From IMG/VR virus record IMGVR_UViG_2872185964_000005: a stretch of 55,490 bases of DNA. One strand, written 5' to 3'. Positions 10,513 to 27,994 of the stretch are shown piece after piece. Under the pieces are notes generated by a model that saw nothing but the letters and a program-made list of their open reading frames with translations, was not told the DNA's origin and searched no databases. Every line of letters begins with the position of its first letter. The first letter of the stretch is position 1. The position numbers were made by a program, and so were the translations under genes. This DNA comes from a virus. Its lineage: Duplodnaviria > Heunggongvirae > Uroviricota > Caudoviricetes.

Positions 10513-12429
10513 TCACTCCTCCGGACAGCTTCGCTGCCAGTTCTTTAAGGGTTGGCCGGGTCGTCTCTTCTTCCCGGGATTTTGCCAGTACAGCCAGATC
10601 AAGCTGCCAGCGTTGCACGGACACACGTAATGCCGCGTAGGCATACACCAGGCAGTCCAGCGCTTCGTTACGCCGCTTTTTGTTATCCCACAGCAGACGC
10701 ATCTTTCCTTTTTCCCACTTCTCCACAAGCTCTTCCGCGACCAGTTGCTGCGCCTCTGTCTGCGAAAAAATCTCCGGATCATCAGGAAAACGGATGGCAT
10801 ACGACGTGGCTTCATCCGCAGGCGTGGGATCGGCTTTCATACGGGCATAGAGAATTTCTTTTGCGGTGTCCGTCCCCACTTCACACAGATACACGCCCCG
10901 CTGATTGCGGGTTTTCGGCATGGTGATCACCGGCTTGCCATAGACAGATGCGCCTTTTACCGGCAGCACCCGGAAAACACCGTGTTTTTTTGACCTCTGA
11001 TAGACAATTTCACCATCGATCCCCCCGGTGTCCCAGCAGACACGGGAAATGGTCATTTCGGTTCCGTCTGCATGGCAGTATTTTTTGTTGATCGCCGCAT
11101 CCACACGTAACAGCGTCTCTTCCTCATCGGGACGGCCCATAATGATGATTTTATCCACCAGAAAAGCTTCCTCTCCCGGTGCCCATCCCCAGACATACAT
11201 CTCAAAACGGTTTCGCTGCGAGTCAATGCCCGCCGTCAGATAAACCACCCGGGCAGGTACCGCCGCCGTGTAATGCACGACCTTATCCATCAGTACCTGG
11301 TGATCGAGTTTTTCGCCCACGGCTTCTTCCCAGGTCTCGCCCAGCGTGGTGTTCACAAAGGTTTTCAGGCCGTTGGGATCTTTCAGTGCATCCAGCCAGT
11401 CATAGACTATCTGTACCCAGGTGGTAAACGGACTGTACGCCGTCCAGATATGGAACGTGATGGAGCGCGGCGGCGGAATTTCATTACCCGCAGCGCTGAA
11501 AAACGTCAGACCGTCACGGGTCCACATGCCCGTGTTTTCACAGAACCACCGCCCGTTGCTCTGGTCCAGTTCAGACTGATGGATCACGCAGCCATGATGT
11601 TCACAGAGGTAGAAAACACTTTCGGGACTGTCCTTCTCCCATTTAAGCCCAAAAGGCGTGGACTCATCGCCAAATTTCAGATACTGCTCCTCCCCACAGT
11701 GTGGGCAGGGCACATAAAAACGCATAAAATGCGCCGACTCGTTGGCCGCTTTTTCGATCTGGCAGGTGCCTTTGATTTTAGGCGTCGAGCCGCGAATGGA
11801 TTTGGGCCATACAGAGCCCTCAATACGTTTATCCCCAGCAGGGTTGGCGAACCCTCTTTTTCGACATCCGGTTCGAACGAGGAAAGTTCGTCATAGCAGA
11901 CCACGTCCACGGATTTTTCACGGTAGTTTTTAGCGGCAGCCCCGCCCAGGCACCAGAAGCCCACGCCCGATGAAAAACGTTTCAGCGTGAGGGTATTATC
12001 ACGATGTTTACGACCCAGCCATGGGGAAAGGTCTTTCAGGCATGGCACATCCCGAATCGTCGCCTCCACGTGAGACTTCATAAAATCTTCAGCGGCAGAA
12101 TCCGTGGGCTGAAAAAGCAGACTGTTTCGTGATTTATGCTCAATAAAATACCCGACCACCCCCAGCAACATCTTTGTATAGCCAACACGGGCAGATTTAA
12201 TCAGGTTAACCGTGCGAACCTGGTCGTTACCCATACAGTTCATAATGGCGACCTGGAACGGCAGCGTTTTCCATTCTCCCTCACCATATGAAGATTCTTT
12301 AGGCAGATAATAATTTTGATCAGCCCATTCAACTGGCGTCACCGGCAATGCCCTTATCAGGGGCTGTAATGCTGTTGTGACAGCACTCATCATATTATTC
12401 AGTTGTTGCTCTGATATATTCATCGAGTA
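10496..12429 (-). CDS. A: Terminase large subunit gpA, apparent single-G deletion near 11820
   Basis: ORFs 11677-12459 and 10496-11725 match lambda A (VEWADQNYYLPKESSYGEGEWKTLPFQ.., FYVPCPHCGEEQYLKFGD..., WDTGGID). Confidence 0.9.
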
Positions 12430-12526
12430 AATCCGGTAATTTATCCCCTGCCCGCGCACACTGATTTGCCCCTTCGCAATAAGGGTTTTCAGATGGTCAA
12501 GATGGCGTGGTGTTAAATCAGGAAAC
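12430..12526 (-). pseudogene. Nu1: Terminase small subunit Nu1, C-terminal fragment, separated from its N-terminal part by IS insertion and inversion
   Basis: Translation FPDLTPRHLDHLKTLIAKGQ continues the Nu1 sequence that stops at 18569 (..LSMQRQFP); shared 8-bp GTTTCCTG duplication. Confidence 0.7.
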
Positions 12527-12656
12527 GTAAGGCAGTATGACTTTCCGTGAGACAGATGCTGGCCAACGTGGGATATTTAACGCGGGTTAACATCGTTGTC
12601 AGAGCCGCATGGGTGAGCTGTTGCTACACCCCGGTATTTCCACCACGGAGGCCAGC

Positions 12657-13781
12657 ATGAACAACAATAACACATTGTACGTCGGGTTAGATGTTCACAA
12701 AGAATCGATTACTGTCGCTTATGCTATCAATTCAGAACCTGTTGAACTGATGGGTAAAATTGGCACATCACCTACTGATATTCAGAATCTTTGTAAACGT
12801 CTCAGGTCAAAGTCATCGCAGGTCAGTATCGTTTATGAAGCGGGGCCCTGTGGTTATGGACTTTATCGTCGGCTGGTGAAATCCGGTTTTGACTGCATGG
12901 TCTGCGCCCCCTCACTTATCCCGAAAAAACCGGGGGAGCGGGTTAAAACCGATCGCCGTGATGCCATCAGACTTGTGCGTTCACTGCGTGCAGGAGATCT
13001 TTCTGCTGTCTACGTACCCGGCATTGAAGATGAGGCATTCCGGGATTTGGCCGGGCATGGGCATCTGCCCGCGATGATTTACGGCATGCAAGGCAACGTC
13101 TGAAATCGTTTCTTCTGGTTCATGGGTCCATTATGTCGGGCGAGCAGATTGGGGCCCTGCACACCGACGCTGGCTCAGCAAATACTCATTCGAAAGTCCC
13201 TGGCGACAATTAGCTTTTGACGAACACCGTCGTACAATAGAAGACCGGCAGGCACAATGTGAACGGCTGGAATCCGCCCTGAAGGAGGCCGTTACCGAAT
13301 GGAGGCTGTATCCGGTAGTAGAGGCGCTGCAAGCCATGCGAGGGATTCAGTTTATTACTGCGGTTGGATTAATTTCTGAACTGGGTGATCTGACCCGTTT
13401 TGAACATCCACGACAACTGATGTCATGGTTTGGTATCACGCCATCAGAATATTCATCGGGTGGAAGCAGACATCAGGCAGCATTACCAAAGCCGGAAACA
13501 GCTATGCCAGAAAGCTATTGGTCGAGGCAGCGTGGAGTTACCGTCATCCGGCACGCATCAGTCCGGCAATACAAAAAAGGCAGGAAAATTTACCCCGCCC
13601 CGTCATTGACAGAGCATGGGATGCTCAACTCAGGCTTTGTAAGAGGTATCGAAAACTTCAGGCCAAAGGAAAGAATGTCAATATTACAATTGTTGCTGTT
13701 GCACGTGAGCTGGCGGGTTTTATCTGGGATATGGGCCGAATAGCAATGTCTGTCGCACAACAACCACAATGTCACAAATAA
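12657..13781 (+). CDS. IS110-family transposase/recombinase, copy with two apparent homopolymer frameshifts
   Basis: MNNNNTLYVGLDVHKESITVAYA... (DEDD/RuvC-like start typical of IS110 family); identical to the intact 22602-23729 copy except for homopolymer lengths. Confidence 0.8.
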
Positions 13782-25073: not shown

Positions 25074-25587
25074 CAACAGCTCACCCATGCGGCTCTGACA
25101 ACGATGTTAACCCGCGTTAAATATCCCACGTTGGCCAGCATCTGTCTCACGGAAAGTCATACTGCCTTACTATCGTATTGATTGATCTGCATCAAATTAA
25201 CGTAAAAGCAACTTCAGATAATACAAATCAGCAACACTGAATATGGGGAAACATTATGTCATCAAAGAACAGAACCCGCAGAACAACAACCCGCAACATC
25301 CGATTTCCAAACCAGATGATTGAACAAATTAACATCGCTTTTGATCTGAAAGGTTCAGGAAACTTTTCAGCGTGGGTTATTGAAGCCTGCAGGAGAAGGC
25401 TGGCAACAGATGCAACGCATCTGCGCCCGGCCAGCATGACAAATAACGAGAAATGAACGTTCGGTTACAGGAGCAGGTACCCACTGTCCTCCAACAATAT
25501 TTCATCTTCATATCCGACGGAACAAGACTTACCCTGCCGGGATGTACAGAATAACAACAGAGTGATAATTAATTTCTGATGAAATAA

Positions 25588-25914
25588 TCAGGGTGCGGAA
25601 GGACTAAAGATAAACGTTTTCTTCACGCCTTTACACGGCCTGTCCTTCTCAAATCGCCATTTTGCCATCGCCTTTACAACCTGCTCATCAAACAGATGGT
25701 GCGGCTCTGAACGAATAAACTCAATTCGGGTGACAGTACCATCAGCACCAATATCAAACCTCACATCAACCCGTCCCTTTATATAATTTGCCGCTGCATA
25801 GGCCGGATATTGTGGTAATGCCTTAACCAACTGTCGGGGCATATCTGTTTTATGTTGCGTACAGCCCATAACCAGAGAAGACAACAAAATAATTAACGGA
25901 AGGTTTCTTTTCAT
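25588..25914 (-). CDS. Predicted lipoprotein with a TonB C-terminal-like domain (moron)
   Basis: Signal peptide plus lipobox MKRNLPLIILLSSLVMGC; YP.Y...G.V.V.F.I.ADG.V..I..I.S.P...FD..V..A...W.F pattern typical of TonB_C; GGGA Shine-Dalgarno. Confidence 0.6.
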   Translation of the reverse strand: MKRNLPLIILLSSLVMGCTQHKTDMPRQLVKALPQYPAYAAANYIKGRVDVRFDIGADGTVTRIEFIRSEPHHLFDEQVVKAMAKWRFEKDRPCKGVKKTFIFSPSAP

Positions 25915-26258
25915 TTTCATTCCCGGCACAGATAAGAATAAGTCTTATTCTAACAATGCCACCCTGTCGGTCATCAATCCTCTGCTTAATGGCAACGACA
26001 ATTATCCGACTTAAATCACAAATCAGACACATGACATAACAGAGCTTGCGAGGTAACACATCGTCCGGTTTCTTCCACCATCGCACCGGACCAGCGACCA
26101 TGAGGGGACAACGCCGCGCTCCGTTAACGCGGTAAACCCCGGTGTGTATCGTTTTTGATTATCCCCGCACACTCGCGCAGAGGAGTCTCCCGGTCGGGCT
26201 GCGGTCTCTGTTAATGCGGGGATACGGCGACAATACCGCGCATGGTTAATAAGGTCGC

Positions 26259-26483
26259 TCAACACACTGGCTGTAATGCAGCGGATACCATGCGGCATTT
26301 AGCGGCATTCATCGTACACTCAACGGTTAGCTCTTCATTCGTGGCATTCACCTGAAAGGTCCGGGAGTGTAATTGCGTACATTTACCACTGAACGAACCT
26401 TCAACAAGAACACGACCACGCTGCAAAATACGGAACGGAATTGTTCCCTGAAAAGGCTTTACGGTTACCAGTAATTTCTTCAT
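26259..26483 (-). CDS. Hypothetical 74-aa Cys-rich protein
   Basis: ORF with GGAGA Shine-Dalgarno 5 nt before ATG (MKKLLVTVKPFQGTIPFRIL...); no recognisable family. Confidence 0.4.
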   Translation of the reverse strand: MKKLLVTVKPFQGTIPFRILQRGRVLVEGSFSGKCTQLHSRTFQVNATNEELTVECTMNAAKCRMVSAALQPVC

Positions 26484-26509: not shown

Positions 26510-26979
26510 GTTAATACACTGAGTGCGGATATATTCCTGCGCCCCTTCCAGTTGCTTCTGCATTGTCATCAACCGCTCTCTGAGGGTGAAATAATCCCGT
26601 TCAGCGGTGTCTGCCAGTCGGGGCCGGTTGCATTATCCATTCCGGAGGTGCCGGTGGCTTCACGCACGGTACCGGAGCAGGTGGCGTTGATCCGCAGGCG
26701 CTTACGACCAGCGGCAACATCAGCACGCAGAGTTTCATTTTCAGCTCTCGCATCGGCTAATTCCCTTGAGTATCTGGCATCAAGCGCAGCAACATCACGC
26801 TGGCGCTGCTGCATGTCAGTAATGGTTGCGTTTGCCAGCTCCAGCTCTCTGGCTTTTTTATCGCGCTGCGCTTTGTAGGTGATGGCGTTATCACGGTAAT
26901 GGTCTGTTGCCAGCCACAGCGCACCACAGACCACCAGCAGAATAACGGTAAACGCGGAAAGCATTCGGTTTATGTTCAC
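26510..26979 (-). CDS. Rz: Spanin Rz (i-spanin) with embedded Rz1 (o-spanin); apparent C-run frameshift near 26620
   Basis: N-terminus ..[42 protein letters not shown] matches lambda Rz; the alternate frame gives Rz1-like [15 protein letters not shown]; downstream frame gives [17 protein letters not shown]. Confidence 0.8.
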
Positions 26980-27460: not shown

Positions 27461-27994
27461 TTATCTGTCGATGTCCCAGCACGCCAGCGCACTTTCCTGG
27501 TCTCGCCGGGATACCTGACCGTAGCAATTATTTGAGCGGATACGGCAGTCTCTGCCACCGTCCTTAATCCACCAGCGAATCGCTTCGCATGCTCCCCTGC
27601 GGTCACCAGCATTAATCCGTCTGTAAAACGTCGACGGGAAACACTTACCGGGGCCAATGTTATAGGGACAAAATGACGCGATACCCGCTTTCTGGGGTTC
27701 GGTCAGCGGCACTTTAATATTGCGCTCCACCCATGCCAGCGCCTTATCACGCTCAATGGCGTTGACCTGGTCGCATTTTTCCTTCGACAACTTCATGCCC
27801 GGGACGACAGGTTTACTATCCACCAGGATGGCACCGCGGCAGATGGTCCAGATACCCGCGCCATCACGGTATGCCGTGGTGTGGTTACCTTCCTTTTCAT
27901 CCAGAAACTGGTCGAGGATTTCAGGCGCAGGCGCACCTGCGGCAATCAGCGCCAGAACGGCAGCCGACAGGCCGTATTTGATTTTGGTGTTCAT
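27461..27994 (-). CDS. R: SAR (signal-anchor-release) endolysin, lysozyme family
   Basis: N-terminal hydrophobic SAR segment LSAAVLALIAAGAPAP; ..YRDGAGIWTICRG.. catalytic region resembling P1 Lyz / phage 21 R. Confidence 0.8.
   Translation of the reverse strand: MNTKIKYGLSAAVLALIAAGAPAPEILDQFLDEKEGNHTTAYRDGAGIWTICRGAILVDSKPVVPGMKLSKEKCDQVNAIERDKALAWVERNIKVPLTEPQKAGIASFCPYNIGPGKCFPSTFYRRINAGDRRGACEAIRWWIKDGGRDCRIRSNNCYGQVSRRDQESALACWDIDR

What the first reader, a model, noticed from the sequence alone, without database searches (positions are those of the whole stretch)
25588..25914. Lipoprotein with a TonB C-terminal-like domain encoded near cos in the late region
The ORF has a lipoprotein signal peptide (lipobox VMGC) followed by a domain with the spacing and residue pattern of the TonB C-terminal domain. 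A periplasm-facing lipoprotein of this kind could bind the TonB boxes of outer-membrane receptors and block TonB-dependent phage or colicin entry, a superinfection-exclusion role comparable in logic to Cor and Llp lipoproteins (which act on FhuA). I do not recognise this exact arrangement as a described system.
Basis: inference. Interest (0 to 1): 0.55.

Follow-up and report, generated by a model that had tools for sequence, protein, structure and literature searches.

The report
Prophage lipoprotein copy of TonB's tip
A degraded lambdoid prophage carries an intact gene for an outer-membrane-anchored copy of only the receptor-docking tip of the bacterial energy transducer TonB; it probably acts as a non-productive decoy at TonB-dependent receptors, but its function has never been tested.

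Summary
Window 25588-25914 (minus strand) encodes a 108-aa protein with a lipoprotein signal peptide (LVMG-C18, Thr at +2). It has a TonB C-terminal domain (Pfam TonB_C, E = 9e-15) that aligns without gaps to E. coli TonB 153-231. The AlphaFold model superposes on TonB from the BtuB and FhuA complexes at about 1 Å.

The gene is not new as an annotation. RefSeq calls it "TonB family protein", it occurs in 1235 of 5426 complete E. coli genomes, and phage 21 and LF82 prophage Perceval carry a 71%-identical version. I found no functional study.

New here:
- It belongs to a family of small secreted TonB-tip proteins, 14 of 16 with a lipobox.
- In Escherichia, Klebsiella and Sodalis phages the gene always lies between the lysis cassette and the terminase/cos region. 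In Raoultella, Klebsiella and Erwinia it is an ordinary chromosomal gene.
- Most relatives have a near-perfect Fur box 14-20 nt before the start codon. The window's allele has a different palindrome there.
- The Perceval copy is transcribed in lysogens, and dN/dS is 0.12.

The decoy or exclusion mechanism is plausible but unproven (about 0.4). The Fur boxes and the chromosomal homologues keep an iron-physiology role open.

The parts
25588..25914 (-). CDS of the 108-aa TonB C-terminal-domain lipoprotein (stop codon included)
   Evidence: ORF list. Same CDS annotated 'TonB family protein' WP_000828072 in 99.6%-identical E. coli DNA. Pfam, NCBIfam and PDB matches.
25861..25914 (-). Signal peptide and lipobox (residues 1-18; LVMG-C18; next residue Thr19)
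   Evidence: Read from the translation. 14 of 16 family members have a lipobox, and none has Asp at +2. Outer-membrane sorting is inferred from the +2 rule (established knowledge).
25603..25839 (-). TonB C-terminal domain (residues 26-104, equivalent to E. coli TonB 153-231), including the beta3 strand that pairs with TonB boxes (residues 94-103)
   Evidence: Ungapped alignment. AlphaFold model and its secondary structure. Foldseek against the PDB. The role of beta3 is from PMC11658791.
25947..25974 (-). Promoter-like site: -35 ATGACC, 16-nt spacer, extended -10 TGtTAGAAT
   Evidence: Consensus scan; on its own this is not above chance. The same TGTTAG(T/A)AT precedes the Fur box in the P0034-type phage alleles. 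The phage-21-type allele is transcribed in lysogens.
25935..25951 (-). Perfect 8-1-8 palindrome AGAATAAGaCTTATTCT overlapping the -10, at the position where relatives have a Fur box
   Evidence: Sequence. It matches the 19-mer Fur consensus at 13 of 19 positions; about 5% of random 120-nt windows score as high. It does not come within 3 mismatches of the 7-1-7 motif (6 mismatches by my hand count).
26258..26482 (-). 74-aa hypothetical ORF between Rz and the TonB-domain gene
   Evidence: Annotated in the near-identical E. coli prophage. ORF list. Function not examined.
26569..26979 (-). Rz (i-spanin) with embedded Rz1 o-spanin lipoprotein (26601-26753)
   Evidence: ORF list. 97% identical to DNA annotated 'lysis protein'. 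83% nucleotide identity to phage 21 Rz.
27461..27994 (-). Endolysin (lysozyme) of the late lysis cassette
   Evidence: ORF list. Homology to the annotated lysozyme in L001.
25256..25456 (+). YlcI/YnfO-family small ORF, the last gene shared with intact relatives before the IS insertion
   Evidence: Collinearity with L001 ends at window 25247.
23808..24970 (-). IS3-family element (orfA 24695-24970, orfB 23808-24698) that replaces the HNH/terminase region found in intact relatives
   Evidence: ORF translations. Intact neighbours shown in L001. The surrounding 12-25 kb is a pile of IS110-, IS3- and IS66-family genes.
16627..16688 (+). Displaced cos region: Fur-like palindrome TGATAATCATTATCA (16627-16641), cosQ-like GGGTCCT (16648-16654), cohesive-end sequence GGGCGGCGACCT (16677-16688)
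   Evidence: Sequence. Motif scan. Nu1 remnant at 16872-17393. The identity of the cos sequences rests on my knowledge of lambda.

Best explanation
The gene is a prophage cargo gene (moron). [quoted passage not shown]

It has no N-terminal membrane helix, no ExbB/ExbD-interacting part and no proline-rich spacer, so it cannot transmit energy. It keeps the TonB fold and the beta3 edge strand that pairs with the TonB box.

The most likely mechanism is this. Sitting under the outer membrane, it binds TonB boxes of TonB-dependent transporters and/or of incoming colicins non-productively. It thereby competes with the scarce real TonB and damps TonB-dependent entry of phages such as T1 and phi80, group B colicins and siderophore-microcins.

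It is expressed from its own promoter in the lysogen. In most relatives that promoter carries a Fur box, so the protein would be made when the receptors themselves are derepressed. In lytic growth it would also be read as the last gene of the late transcript.

Shown: domain identity, fold, lipobox, absence of the energy-coupling parts, synteny, purifying selection, Fur boxes in relatives, and transcription of a 71%-identical allele in a lysogen.
Inferred: outer-membrane location, TonB-box binding, inhibition, and the exclusion phenotype.
For: Domain and fold:
- About 42% identity (hand count from the alignment) to E. coli TonB 153-231 without gaps.
- rmsd 1.0-1.1 Å to TonB taken from its complexes with BtuB and FhuA.
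- The aromatic and structural residues Y163, P164, G174, F180, G186, P198, F202, W213 and F230 are kept; most of these positions are invariant or nearly so in the family.
- Position Q160 is Leu33. Q160L is the classical suppressor allele that restores the activity of TonB-box mutants of FhuA and colicin M (PMC11658791).

Mechanistic precedent:
- Overproduced periplasmic TonB domain inhibits TonB-dependent iron import, and a TonB-box pentapeptide inhibits colicin killing and phi80 infection (PMC9841981 citing Howard 2001 and Tuckman 1992).

Export and anchoring: 14 of 16 family members have a lipobox, none with Asp at +2, and the other two have ordinary signal peptides.

Real, selected gene:
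- dN/dS = 0.12 between the window allele and the phage 21 allele.
- It is intact here in an IS-riddled prophage.
- It occurs in 1235 of 5426 complete E. coli genomes.

Moron behaviour:
- It keeps the same slot between the lysis genes and the terminase/cos region. The phage 21 type has lambda-type terminase genes and the window type an HK97-type morphogenesis set. Klebsiella and Sodalis phages share the slot.
- LF82_160 'TonB fragment' is expressed 8-fold above prophage background in lysogens, while the flanking endolysin, Rz and terminase genes are silent (PMC9928086).

Fur boxes:
- They sit 14-20 nt before the start codon with 0-2 mismatches to TGATAATnATTATCA in 8 of the 15 loci scanned (three chromosomal Raoultella/Klebsiella-type loci, L084, Erwinia typographi, the Sodalis prophage, and phage alleles L103, L111 and L127). 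Two further Klebsiella-phage alleles (L134, L139) match at 3 mismatches, and one (L112) has no match within 3.
- By the 19-mer score the upstream site was the best in each of the six loci checked, and it is the only conserved block in otherwise unalignable upstream DNA.
Against: - No binding or phenotype data exist for any family member (literature searches).
- Inducing an inhibitor of iron uptake under iron starvation looks costly.
- Homologues sit at a fixed chromosomal site (next to lacI-lacZ) in several Raoultella and Klebsiella species and next to the ara genes in Erwinia. That fits a housekeeping iron-stress role at least as well as an anti-phage one.
- The window's own allele lacks a canonical Fur box (13 of 19), and the phage 21 allele has none (10 of 19).
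- Family-specific conserved surface residues differ from TonB (Tyr39 in place of R166, and SEPxHLFD in place of AKPANMFE), so the partner could differ.
- Whether a 7-residue tether lets the domain reach a TonB box in the orientation seen in 2GRX and 2GSK was not tested.
- PADLOC has no defence model for it.
- Neither intact carrier phage I checked has an annotated cor gene, so self-exclusion of the Cor type is not indicated.
Confidence: 0.4

Rival explanations
1. Iron-limitation fitness factor that helps TonB-dependent uptake rather than blocking it. An outer-membrane-anchored TonB-tip paralogue, induced by iron starvation, could pair with the C-terminal domain of real TonB or pre-organise TonB boxes at the outer membrane. 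It would be carried by phages as a lysogenic-conversion gene in the way sitABCD is.
For: - Strong Fur boxes in most relatives.
- Chromosomal, non-prophage homologues at a conserved site in Raoultella and Klebsiella, and in Erwinia.
- Phage 21 and Perceval carry the iron/manganese importer sitABCD as well.
- Constitutive expression in lysogens.
Against: - No mechanism is known by which an unenergised TonB domain could promote transport.
- The only reported effect of extra periplasmic TonB domain is inhibition.
- No transporter gene is linked to it in any locus examined.
Confidence: 0.2
2. An envelope lipoprotein whose TonB-like fold has been re-used for another partner, such as peptidoglycan, another outer-membrane protein or a host factor. 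It would give a Bor-like conversion phenotype unrelated to TonB boxes.
For: - It occupies the same moron slot as bor.
- Family-specific conserved surface motifs differ from TonB.
- TonB-like domains are used for other partners in FusB, which binds ferredoxin (PDB 9hi3, hit), and in gliding-motility proteins (NCBIfam hits).
Against: - Its closest relatives by far are enterobacterial TonB proteins themselves (NCBIfam PRK10819 models, E = 2e-20; ungapped alignment).
- The beta3 strand and the YP motif are retained.
- Fur control points to iron and TonB biology.
Confidence: 0.12
3. A lysis accessory or spanin, as the PHROG label 'Rz-like spanin' suggests.
For: - PHROG 1267, E = 1.3e-42.
- It is an outer-membrane-type lipoprotein encoded just after Rz/Rz1 in the late operon.
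Against: - The phage has its own complete Rz/Rz1 pair (phage 21 annotation).
- The protein is a 90-aa globular TonB domain. It is neither a short proline-rich o-spanin embedded in Rz, nor does it have the C-terminal membrane helix of a unimolecular spanin.
- Homologues occur in chromosomes with no lysis genes nearby.
- It is transcribed in lysogens when the lysis genes are silent.
- The label is most simply an annotation error.
Confidence: 0.03
4. A non-functional remnant of a captured host tonB gene ('TonB fragment').
For: Annotated as 'partial tonB-like' or 'TonB fragment' in several records.
Against: - It has acquired its own signal peptide and lipobox.
- dN/dS is 0.12.
- It is conserved across genera at 35-50% identity with the fold-defining residues invariant.
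- It has its own regulated promoter and is transcribed.
Confidence: 0.02

Closest known systems
C-terminal domain of E. coli TonB (residues 150-239; PDB 1u07, 2gsk, 2grx)
   Same: - About 42% identical over 79 residues without gaps.
- Same fold at about 1 Å.
- Same conserved aromatic, Gly and Pro residues.
- Retains beta3, the strand that pairs with TonB boxes.
   Different: - No N-terminal membrane anchor, ExbD-binding region or proline-rich spacer.
- Anchored instead to a membrane (predicted outer) by a lipid.
- Q160 is replaced by Leu and R166 by Tyr.
- The tail after beta3 is shorter and proline-rich (5 residues against 9).
- It cannot be energised.
Artificially exported periplasmic TonB fragments (Howard et al. 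2001, known to me and cited in PMC9841981)
   Same: An unenergised TonB C-terminal domain placed in the periplasm. It is reported to inhibit TonB-dependent iron import. This is the closest functional precedent for the proposed decoy mechanism.
   Different: - Those are laboratory constructs, soluble and overproduced.
- This is a natural, lipid-anchored, diverged protein with its own promoter.
- I could not read the primary paper.
Phage 21 gp73 'TonB C-terminal domain protein' and LF82 prophage Perceval LF82_160 'TonB fragment'
   Same: - Same family (71% identical), same length, same lipobox.
- Same position between the lysis genes and cos.
- The Perceval copy is listed as a moron expressed in lysogens.
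   Different: - Different allele group.
- The upstream region keeps only half of the palindrome and is preceded by a 45-aa ORF.
- Neither has an assigned function.
Cor (phi80, N15, HK022) and Llp (T5) exclusion lipoproteins
   Same: - Small phage-encoded lipoproteins.
- Their function is established: they block entry through FhuA, a TonB-dependent transporter (my knowledge).
   Different: - No sequence or domain relationship; only TonB_C and TonB_2 hits were found.
- Cor and Llp act on one receptor that their own phage uses.
- This protein would act on the shared energy-coupling step.
- Neither carrier phage checked has an annotated cor gene.
Bor of phage lambda
   Same: An outer-membrane lipoprotein moron in the same genome slot (between Rz and cos), expressed in lysogens.
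   Different: - Unrelated sequence and opposite strand.
- Bor is linked to serum resistance, not to TonB.

Membership tests
TonB_C domain family (Pfam PF03544 / TIGR01352) | Profile match above the curated cut-off | tested here: met
   PF03544 55.3 bits against a 24.6-bit cut-off. TIGR01352 55.1 bits against 27.1.
TonB_C domain family (Pfam PF03544 / TIGR01352) | Fold of a three-stranded beta-sheet packed against two helices | tested here: met
   AlphaFold model with pLDDT about 97 in the domain. Foldseek finds TonB C-terminal domains at rmsd 1.0-1.4 Å and probability 1.00.
TonB energy transducer (equivalog PRK10819) | Full-length architecture: N-terminal membrane helix, proline-rich spacer and C-terminal domain, scoring above the equivalog cut-off | tested here: not met
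   The best equivalog scores 73.6 bits against a 315-bit cut-off, and only profile positions 157-240 are matched. The protein is 108 aa and its N-terminus is a cleavable lipoprotein signal.
Bacterial lipoproteins | Signal peptide ending in a lipobox [LVI][ASTVIM][GAS]C | tested here: met
   LVMG-C18 follows a basic n-region and a hydrophobic core. The lipobox is conserved in 14 of 16 family members. Lipidation itself is not testable here.
Bacterial lipoproteins | Outer-membrane sorting (no Asp at +2) | tested here: met
   Thr19 at +2. In the 14 lipobox-bearing relatives the +2 residue is S, T or A. The location itself is inferred from the +2 rule.
Phage morons (autonomously expressed prophage cargo) | Transcribed from the repressed prophage, independently of neighbouring late genes | tested here: inconclusive
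   Shown by published RNA-seq for the 71%-identical Perceval allele. For the window allele there is only a promoter-like site, which is not above chance on its own.
Fur regulon | Fur box overlapping the promoter | tested here: inconclusive
   Relatives have 0-2 mismatches to the 7-1-7 motif, 14-20 nt before the start codon. The window allele matches the 19-mer at only 13 of 19 and has no 7-1-7 match within 3 mismatches. The phage 21 allele matches at 10 of 19. No binding data exist.
Cor / Llp superinfection-exclusion lipoproteins | Sequence family membership | tested here: not met
   Pfam, PHROG and NCBIfam scans return only TonB-type families and the mislabelled PHROG 1267.
Cor / Llp superinfection-exclusion lipoproteins | Blocks infection through a TonB-dependent receptor | not testable with these tools
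   This needs plating assays.
Spanins (the label of PHROG 1267) | An o-spanin embedded in or adjacent to its i-spanin partner, or a unimolecular spanin with a C-terminal membrane helix | tested here: not met
   The gene is separate, about 650 bp downstream of a complete Rz/Rz1 pair. It is a globular TonB domain with no C-terminal hydrophobic helix. Homologues occur away from any lysis genes.
Known anti-phage defence systems (PADLOC) | Match to a defence-system protein model | tested here: not met
   The only hit is a chance-level one (E = 0.038) to an unrelated cyclase model.

The most novel reading that the evidence does not exclude
The family is a new class of entry barrier that targets the shared energy-coupling step rather than a receptor's surface. 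It is an outer-membrane-tethered (sometimes soluble periplasmic), unenergised TonB tip, switched on by Fur derepression exactly when TonB-dependent receptors are abundant. It would capture the TonB boxes of receptors or of translocating colicins and microcins, protecting against TonB-dependent phages and bacteriocins. It is spread by temperate phages of Escherichia, Klebsiella and Sodalis, and is fixed in the chromosomes of Raoultella, Klebsiella and Erwinia.
Probability: 0.3. Interest if true: 0.75.

Novelty: new variant of a known kind. Interest (0 to 1): 0.58.

Why it matters
If the decoy mechanism holds, roughly a quarter of sequenced E. coli would carry a prophage gene that modulates every TonB-dependent process at once. 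This includes Shiga-toxin phage lysogens and the Crohn's-associated strain LF82. The affected processes are siderophore and B12 uptake, and sensitivity to T1/phi80-type phages, group B colicins, siderophore-microcins and siderophore-antibiotic conjugates.

That would bear on three areas:
- phage-therapy host range;
- bacteriocin ecology in the iron-limited gut;
- resistance to "Trojan horse" antibiotics.

It would also be a natural version of an inhibitor strategy (blocking the TonB to TonB-box contact) that medicinal chemists are trying to engineer (PMC9841981).

The Fur boxes make the regulation testable in a day. The phenotype needs only one plasmid and standard phage and colicin spot tests.

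Tried and rejected
- **Literature.** Six were aimed at a functional study of a phage-encoded TonB-like lipoprotein and found none. The only relevant mention is the LF82 moron table.
- **Howard et al. 2001.** The paper could not be read, so it is cited second-hand.
- **Single-sequence AlphaFold run.** It gave pLDDT 56 and was discarded in favour of the run with an alignment.
- **Locus searches.** The search for related loci with the 16- and 8-sequence alignments failed for lack of conserved stretches. Smaller alignments worked. The first viral scan returned only near-identical E. coli loci and added little.
- **Source of the window.** No complete E. coli genome covers more than 41% of a 24-kb slice. 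The many IS elements suggest Shigella, but this was not confirmed.
- **Iron cargo nearby.** I looked for iron-related cargo between 13 and 24 kb. The ten ORFs scanned gave only IS-family genes, a Nu1 remnant and three without a family.
- **BFVD viral structure library.** No match at E <= 1e-3.
- **Window palindrome as a Fur box.** Rejected as shown: 13 of 19 is reached by about 5% of random windows.
- **Spanin and pseudogene readings.** Both were considered and rejected (see the rival explanations).
Full report
**1. What is there**

On the minus strand, 25588-25914 is an ATG-started ORF of 108 codons. In-frame alternatives lie at 25920 (ATG) and 25929 (GTG). The product reads MKRNLPLIILLSSLVMG-C18-TQHKTDM-P26... 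It has a basic n-region, a hydrophobic core, a lipobox (L-V-M-G-C) and Thr at +2.

From Pro26 to Ser104 it matches the following:
- Pfam TonB_C: E = 9.1e-15, 55.3 bits against a 24.6-bit cut-off.
- TIGR01352.
- E. coli TonB residues 153-231, without a single gap (PDB 1u07, 2gsk, 2grx; E about 1e-15).

A single-sequence AlphaFold run was poor (pLDDT 56). With a 16-sequence family alignment the domain is modelled at pLDDT about 97. Foldseek then returns only TonB C-terminal domains at the top:
- 2gsk_B, TonB from the BtuB complex: rmsd 1.0 Å, target TM-score 0.92.
- 2grx_C, TonB from the FhuA complex: rmsd 1.1 Å.
- 1u07: rmsd 1.3 Å.

**2. What it lacks and what it keeps**

The best full-length TonB equivalog model scores 73.6 bits against a 315-bit cut-off and is matched only at profile positions 157-240. 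There is no membrane helix, no ExbD-contacting region and no proline-rich spacer. The protein cannot be energised.

It keeps the residues that define the TonB fold: Y163, P164, G174, F180, G186, P198, F202, W213 and F230 in TonB numbering. Most of these positions are invariant or nearly so across the family. It also keeps beta3 (residues 94-103 in the model). In the FhuA-TonB crystal structure beta3 pairs in parallel with the TonB box (PMC11658791).

Three differences from TonB stand out:
- Q160 is Leu33. Q160L is the allele that restores the activity of TonB-box mutants of FhuA and colicin M (PMC11658791).
- R166 is Tyr39, conserved as an aromatic residue in most of the family.
- The tail after beta3 is short and proline-rich (SPSAP).

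**3. Context in the window**

The gene is co-oriented with, and downstream of, the late lysis genes. These are the endolysin (27461-27994) and Rz (26569-26979) with its embedded Rz1 lipoprotein (26601-26753), followed by a 74-aa ORF (26258-26482). A YlcI/YnfO-family ORF follows on the other strand (25256-25456).

Collinearity with intact relatives stops at 25247. An IS3-family element follows. The stretch from 12 to 25 kb is a pile of IS110-, IS3- and IS66-family genes with a Nu1 remnant. A lambda-type cos (GGGCGGCGACCT, 16677-16688) lies on the opposite strand. Tail genes lie at 0.7-4.2 kb.

No complete E. coli genome covers more than 41% of a 24-kb slice of the window. The source is probably an IS-rich relative such as Shigella, which is my inference. 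The TonB-domain gene is intact in this wreck.

**4. Is it known?**

As an annotation, yes:
- The same 701-nt region is found at 99% identity or more in many E. coli genomes. It matches in 1235 of 5426 complete genomes, with up to 6 copies per genome, and the CDS is named "TonB family protein".
- The exact protein has been seen on at least 1000 contigs.
- In the phage collection it occurs in Stx1a-converting phages, Lys8385Vzw and JLK-2012 at 98-99% identity.
- A second allele group at 71% identity occurs in phage 21 ("TonB C-terminal domain protein"), ev017, Perceval ("TonB fragment") and the PhiR phages.
- A 41%-identical version occurs in a Klebsiella phage.
- PHROG 1267, which is this family (E = 1.3e-42), is labelled "Rz-like spanin". 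I regard that label as an error (see section 8).

The only relevant mention is the LF82 moron table.

**5. The family**

An exhaustive HMMER search gave 4726 hits, mostly real TonB proteins. The closest non-E. coli hits are 107-133-aa (two of about 150 aa) single-domain proteins that align from the first residue.

- Fourteen of the 16 I aligned have a lipobox, with S, T or A at +2.
- Two have ordinary signal peptides, so they would be soluble periplasmic TonB tips.
- dN/dS between the window allele and the phage 21 allele is 0.186/1.53 = 0.12, which indicates strong purifying selection.

**6. Where the family sits**

In phages it always lies between the lysis cassette and the terminase/cos region, on the late strand, whatever the type of lysis or packaging genes:
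- E. coli prophage with an HK97-type morphogenesis set.
- Phage 21 and PhiR47_2, with lambda-type terminase genes (Nu1/A annotated in PhiR47_2).
- Klebsiella phages.
- A Sodalis prophage.

It also occurs outside prophages:
- Next to lacI-lacZ in Raoultella ornithinolytica, R. lignicola and Klebsiella sp. R390.
- Next to the ara genes in an Erwinia species.
- Next to ABC-transporter genes in Erwinia typographi.

It is therefore not only a phage gene.

**7. Regulation, the main new point**

Directly upstream of most relatives is a Fur box. It ends 14-20 nt before the start codon.

Mismatches to the 7-1-7 motif TGATAATnATTATCA:

| Mismatches | Loci |
|---|---|
| 0 | L086, L088, L103 (representing the P0034-type alleles L103-L110), L111 |
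| 1 | L083, L091 (Sodalis prophage) |
| 2 | L092, L084, L127 |

Matches to the 19-mer consensus GATAATGATAATCATTATC:

| Locus or group | Matches of 19 |
|---|---|
| L091 | 17 |
| L088, L092 | 16 |
| Klebsiella-phage group | 12-14 |

Background for comparison:
- In the six of these loci whose background was sampled, the upstream site is the best-scoring 19-mer site.
- Random 120-nt windows reach 14 of 19 or more only 1-2% of the time.
- Shuffled sequence gives about 0.5 hits within 3 mismatches per locus.
- In an alignment of twelve upstream regions the box is the only conserved block.
- In the P0034-type phage alleles the box abuts an extended -10 element, TGTTAGTAT.

The window allele has the matching extended -10 TGTTAGAAT (25955-25947) with a -35-like ATGACC. 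Where the Fur box should be, it has a different perfect palindrome, AGAATAAGaCTTATTCT (25951-25935). That palindrome matches the 19-mer at 13 of 19, a score about 5% of random windows reach. It does not come within 3 mismatches of the 7-1-7 motif (6 by my hand count). The phage 21 allele keeps only the left half (10 of 19).

So Fur control is well supported for the family but not shown for this allele.

Independent expression in lysogens has published support for the phage 21 type. In LF82, LF82_160 "TonB fragment" is 8-fold above the Perceval prophage background. Its normalised log2 values are about 5-6.6, against 2.3-3.7 for the flanking endolysin and Rz genes and about 2.3-4.3 for the terminase genes. 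Expression is unchanged in macrophages (PMC9928086).

**8. Mechanism**

The facts to explain are these: an exported and (mostly) lipid-anchored, unenergisable, selected copy of the TonB-box-binding domain, closest to enterobacterial TonB itself, made in lysogens, and in most lineages made only when Fur is off.

*Decoy (confidence about 0.4).* The most economical reading is competition. The protein would bind TonB boxes of transporters and/or of translocating colicins without pulling on them. Precedent exists. Overproduced periplasmic TonB domain inhibits TonB-dependent iron import. A TonB-box pentapeptide inhibits colicin killing and phi80 infection (PMC9841981, citing Howard 2001 and Tuckman 1992; the primary paper was not available). 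Fur control would then deploy the shield when FepA, FhuA, Cir and the other receptors are derepressed and the cell is most exposed to TonB-dependent phages, colicins and siderophore-microcins.

Several points keep this at about 0.4:
- No phenotype has been reported.
- Blocking iron uptake under iron starvation has an obvious cost.
- Chromosomally fixed homologues exist in Raoultella, Klebsiella and Erwinia.
- Family-specific surface motifs differ from TonB.
- Whether a 7-residue tether allows the docking geometry is untested.
- The presence of sitABCD in phage 21 and Perceval can be read two ways: as compensation for a TonB block, or as a sign that the gene is simply another iron-limitation fitness cargo.

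*Rivals:*
- A positive accessory of TonB-dependent uptake (0.2).
- Re-use of the fold for another envelope partner (0.12).
- A spanin or lysis role (0.03). This is contradicted by the phage's own complete Rz/Rz1 pair, the globular domain, the chromosomal homologues and expression in lysogens.
- A dead tonB fragment (0.02). This is contradicted by the acquired signal peptide, the dN/dS value and the cross-genus conservation.

**9. Comparison with known systems**

- It is a member of the TonB_C domain family (tested and met).
- It is not a TonB energy transducer (tested and not met).
- It is a predicted lipoprotein (sequence features met).
- It is unrelated in sequence to Cor and Llp (tested and not met), and PADLOC has no defence model for it.
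- It may work like Cor and Llp only in the loose sense of a prophage lipoprotein that closes a TonB-dependent gate. It would act on the shared coupling step, not on one receptor.
- Neither intact carrier examined has an annotated cor gene. Phage 21 has a lambda-like J.
- It shares its genome slot and its lysogenic expression with Bor, but nothing else.
- The BFVD library of viral protein structures contains no TonB-like fold at E <= 1e-3. The domain is therefore rare among catalogued viral proteins.

**10. Verdict**

- The gene is already annotated, so the novelty lies elsewhere. It lies in recognising a lipoprotein/periplasmic "TonB-tip" family, its Fur boxes, its fixed moron slot, and the decoy hypothesis.
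- I class it as a new variant of a known kind and score interest at about 0.58. The gene is common, clinically relevant, cheap to test and mechanistically unusual if the hypothesis holds.

Noticed in passing
window 16627-16688 (+); also L139 6829, L091 7670, L111 5217, L002 7047: A perfect Fur-type palindrome TGATAATCATTATCA sits 6 nt before a cosQ-like GGGTCCT and 35 nt before the lambda-type cohesive end. Similar palindromes (0-2 mismatches) lie just upstream of terS or near cos in a Klebsiella phage, a Sodalis prophage, another phage contig and phage 21. It could be an IHF or terminase site, or a real Fur site at the packaging region.
   Followed up: partly
window 12000-25250: The prophage is scrambled by IS110-, IS3- and IS66-family elements. 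The cos/Nu1 fragment (16.6-17.4 kb, + strand) is inverted relative to the late operon (lysis genes at 26.5-28 kb, minus strand). Three identical 296-aa IS3-type orfB copies occur at 17275, 23808 and 43934.
   Followed up: partly
PHROG 1267 (match to window 25588-25914): This PHROG is labelled 'Rz-like spanin', but it is the TonB_C lipoprotein family (E = 1.3e-42 over the full length). The label looks like an annotation error that will propagate.
   Followed up: yes
window 25935-25951 (-): A perfect 8-1-8 palindrome AGAATAAGaCTTATTCT overlaps the -10 of the gene's promoter-like site, at the position where relatives have a Fur box. The phage 21 allele keeps only its left half. The binding factor, if any, is unknown.
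   Followed up: partly
L102 (phage 21, record 21967-25416) and LF82 prophage Perceval: Both phages that carry the 71%-identical allele also carry the iron/manganese importer sitABCD as cargo. The intact E. coli O10:H32 prophage (L101) carries an ompC porin gene inside its tail region.
   Followed up: no
L083 6738-7301 and L099 1277-1903: A DUF1440/YagU-like membrane protein gene lies next to the chromosomal homologue in Raoultella. It is 61% identical to a cargo gene of the Klebsiella phage that also carries the TonB-domain gene. This suggests a shared pool of cargo genes.
   Followed up: partly
P0139, P0129 (family members): Two relatives have an ordinary signal peptide instead of a lipobox, so they would be soluble periplasmic TonB tips. 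These are natural counterparts of the laboratory constructs reported to inhibit TonB-dependent transport.
   Followed up: no
window 25633-25635 (codon 94): The window allele and the phage 21 allele both have an extra Cys at residue 94 (RPC-K/Q-G), just before beta3. Other alleles have R, Y, T, S or V there. A free periplasmic Cys could form an intermolecular disulphide.
   Followed up: no
window 26258-26482 (-): A 74-aa ORF lies between Rz and the TonB-domain gene. It is annotated as hypothetical in near-identical E. coli prophages, and no function was examined.
   Followed up: no
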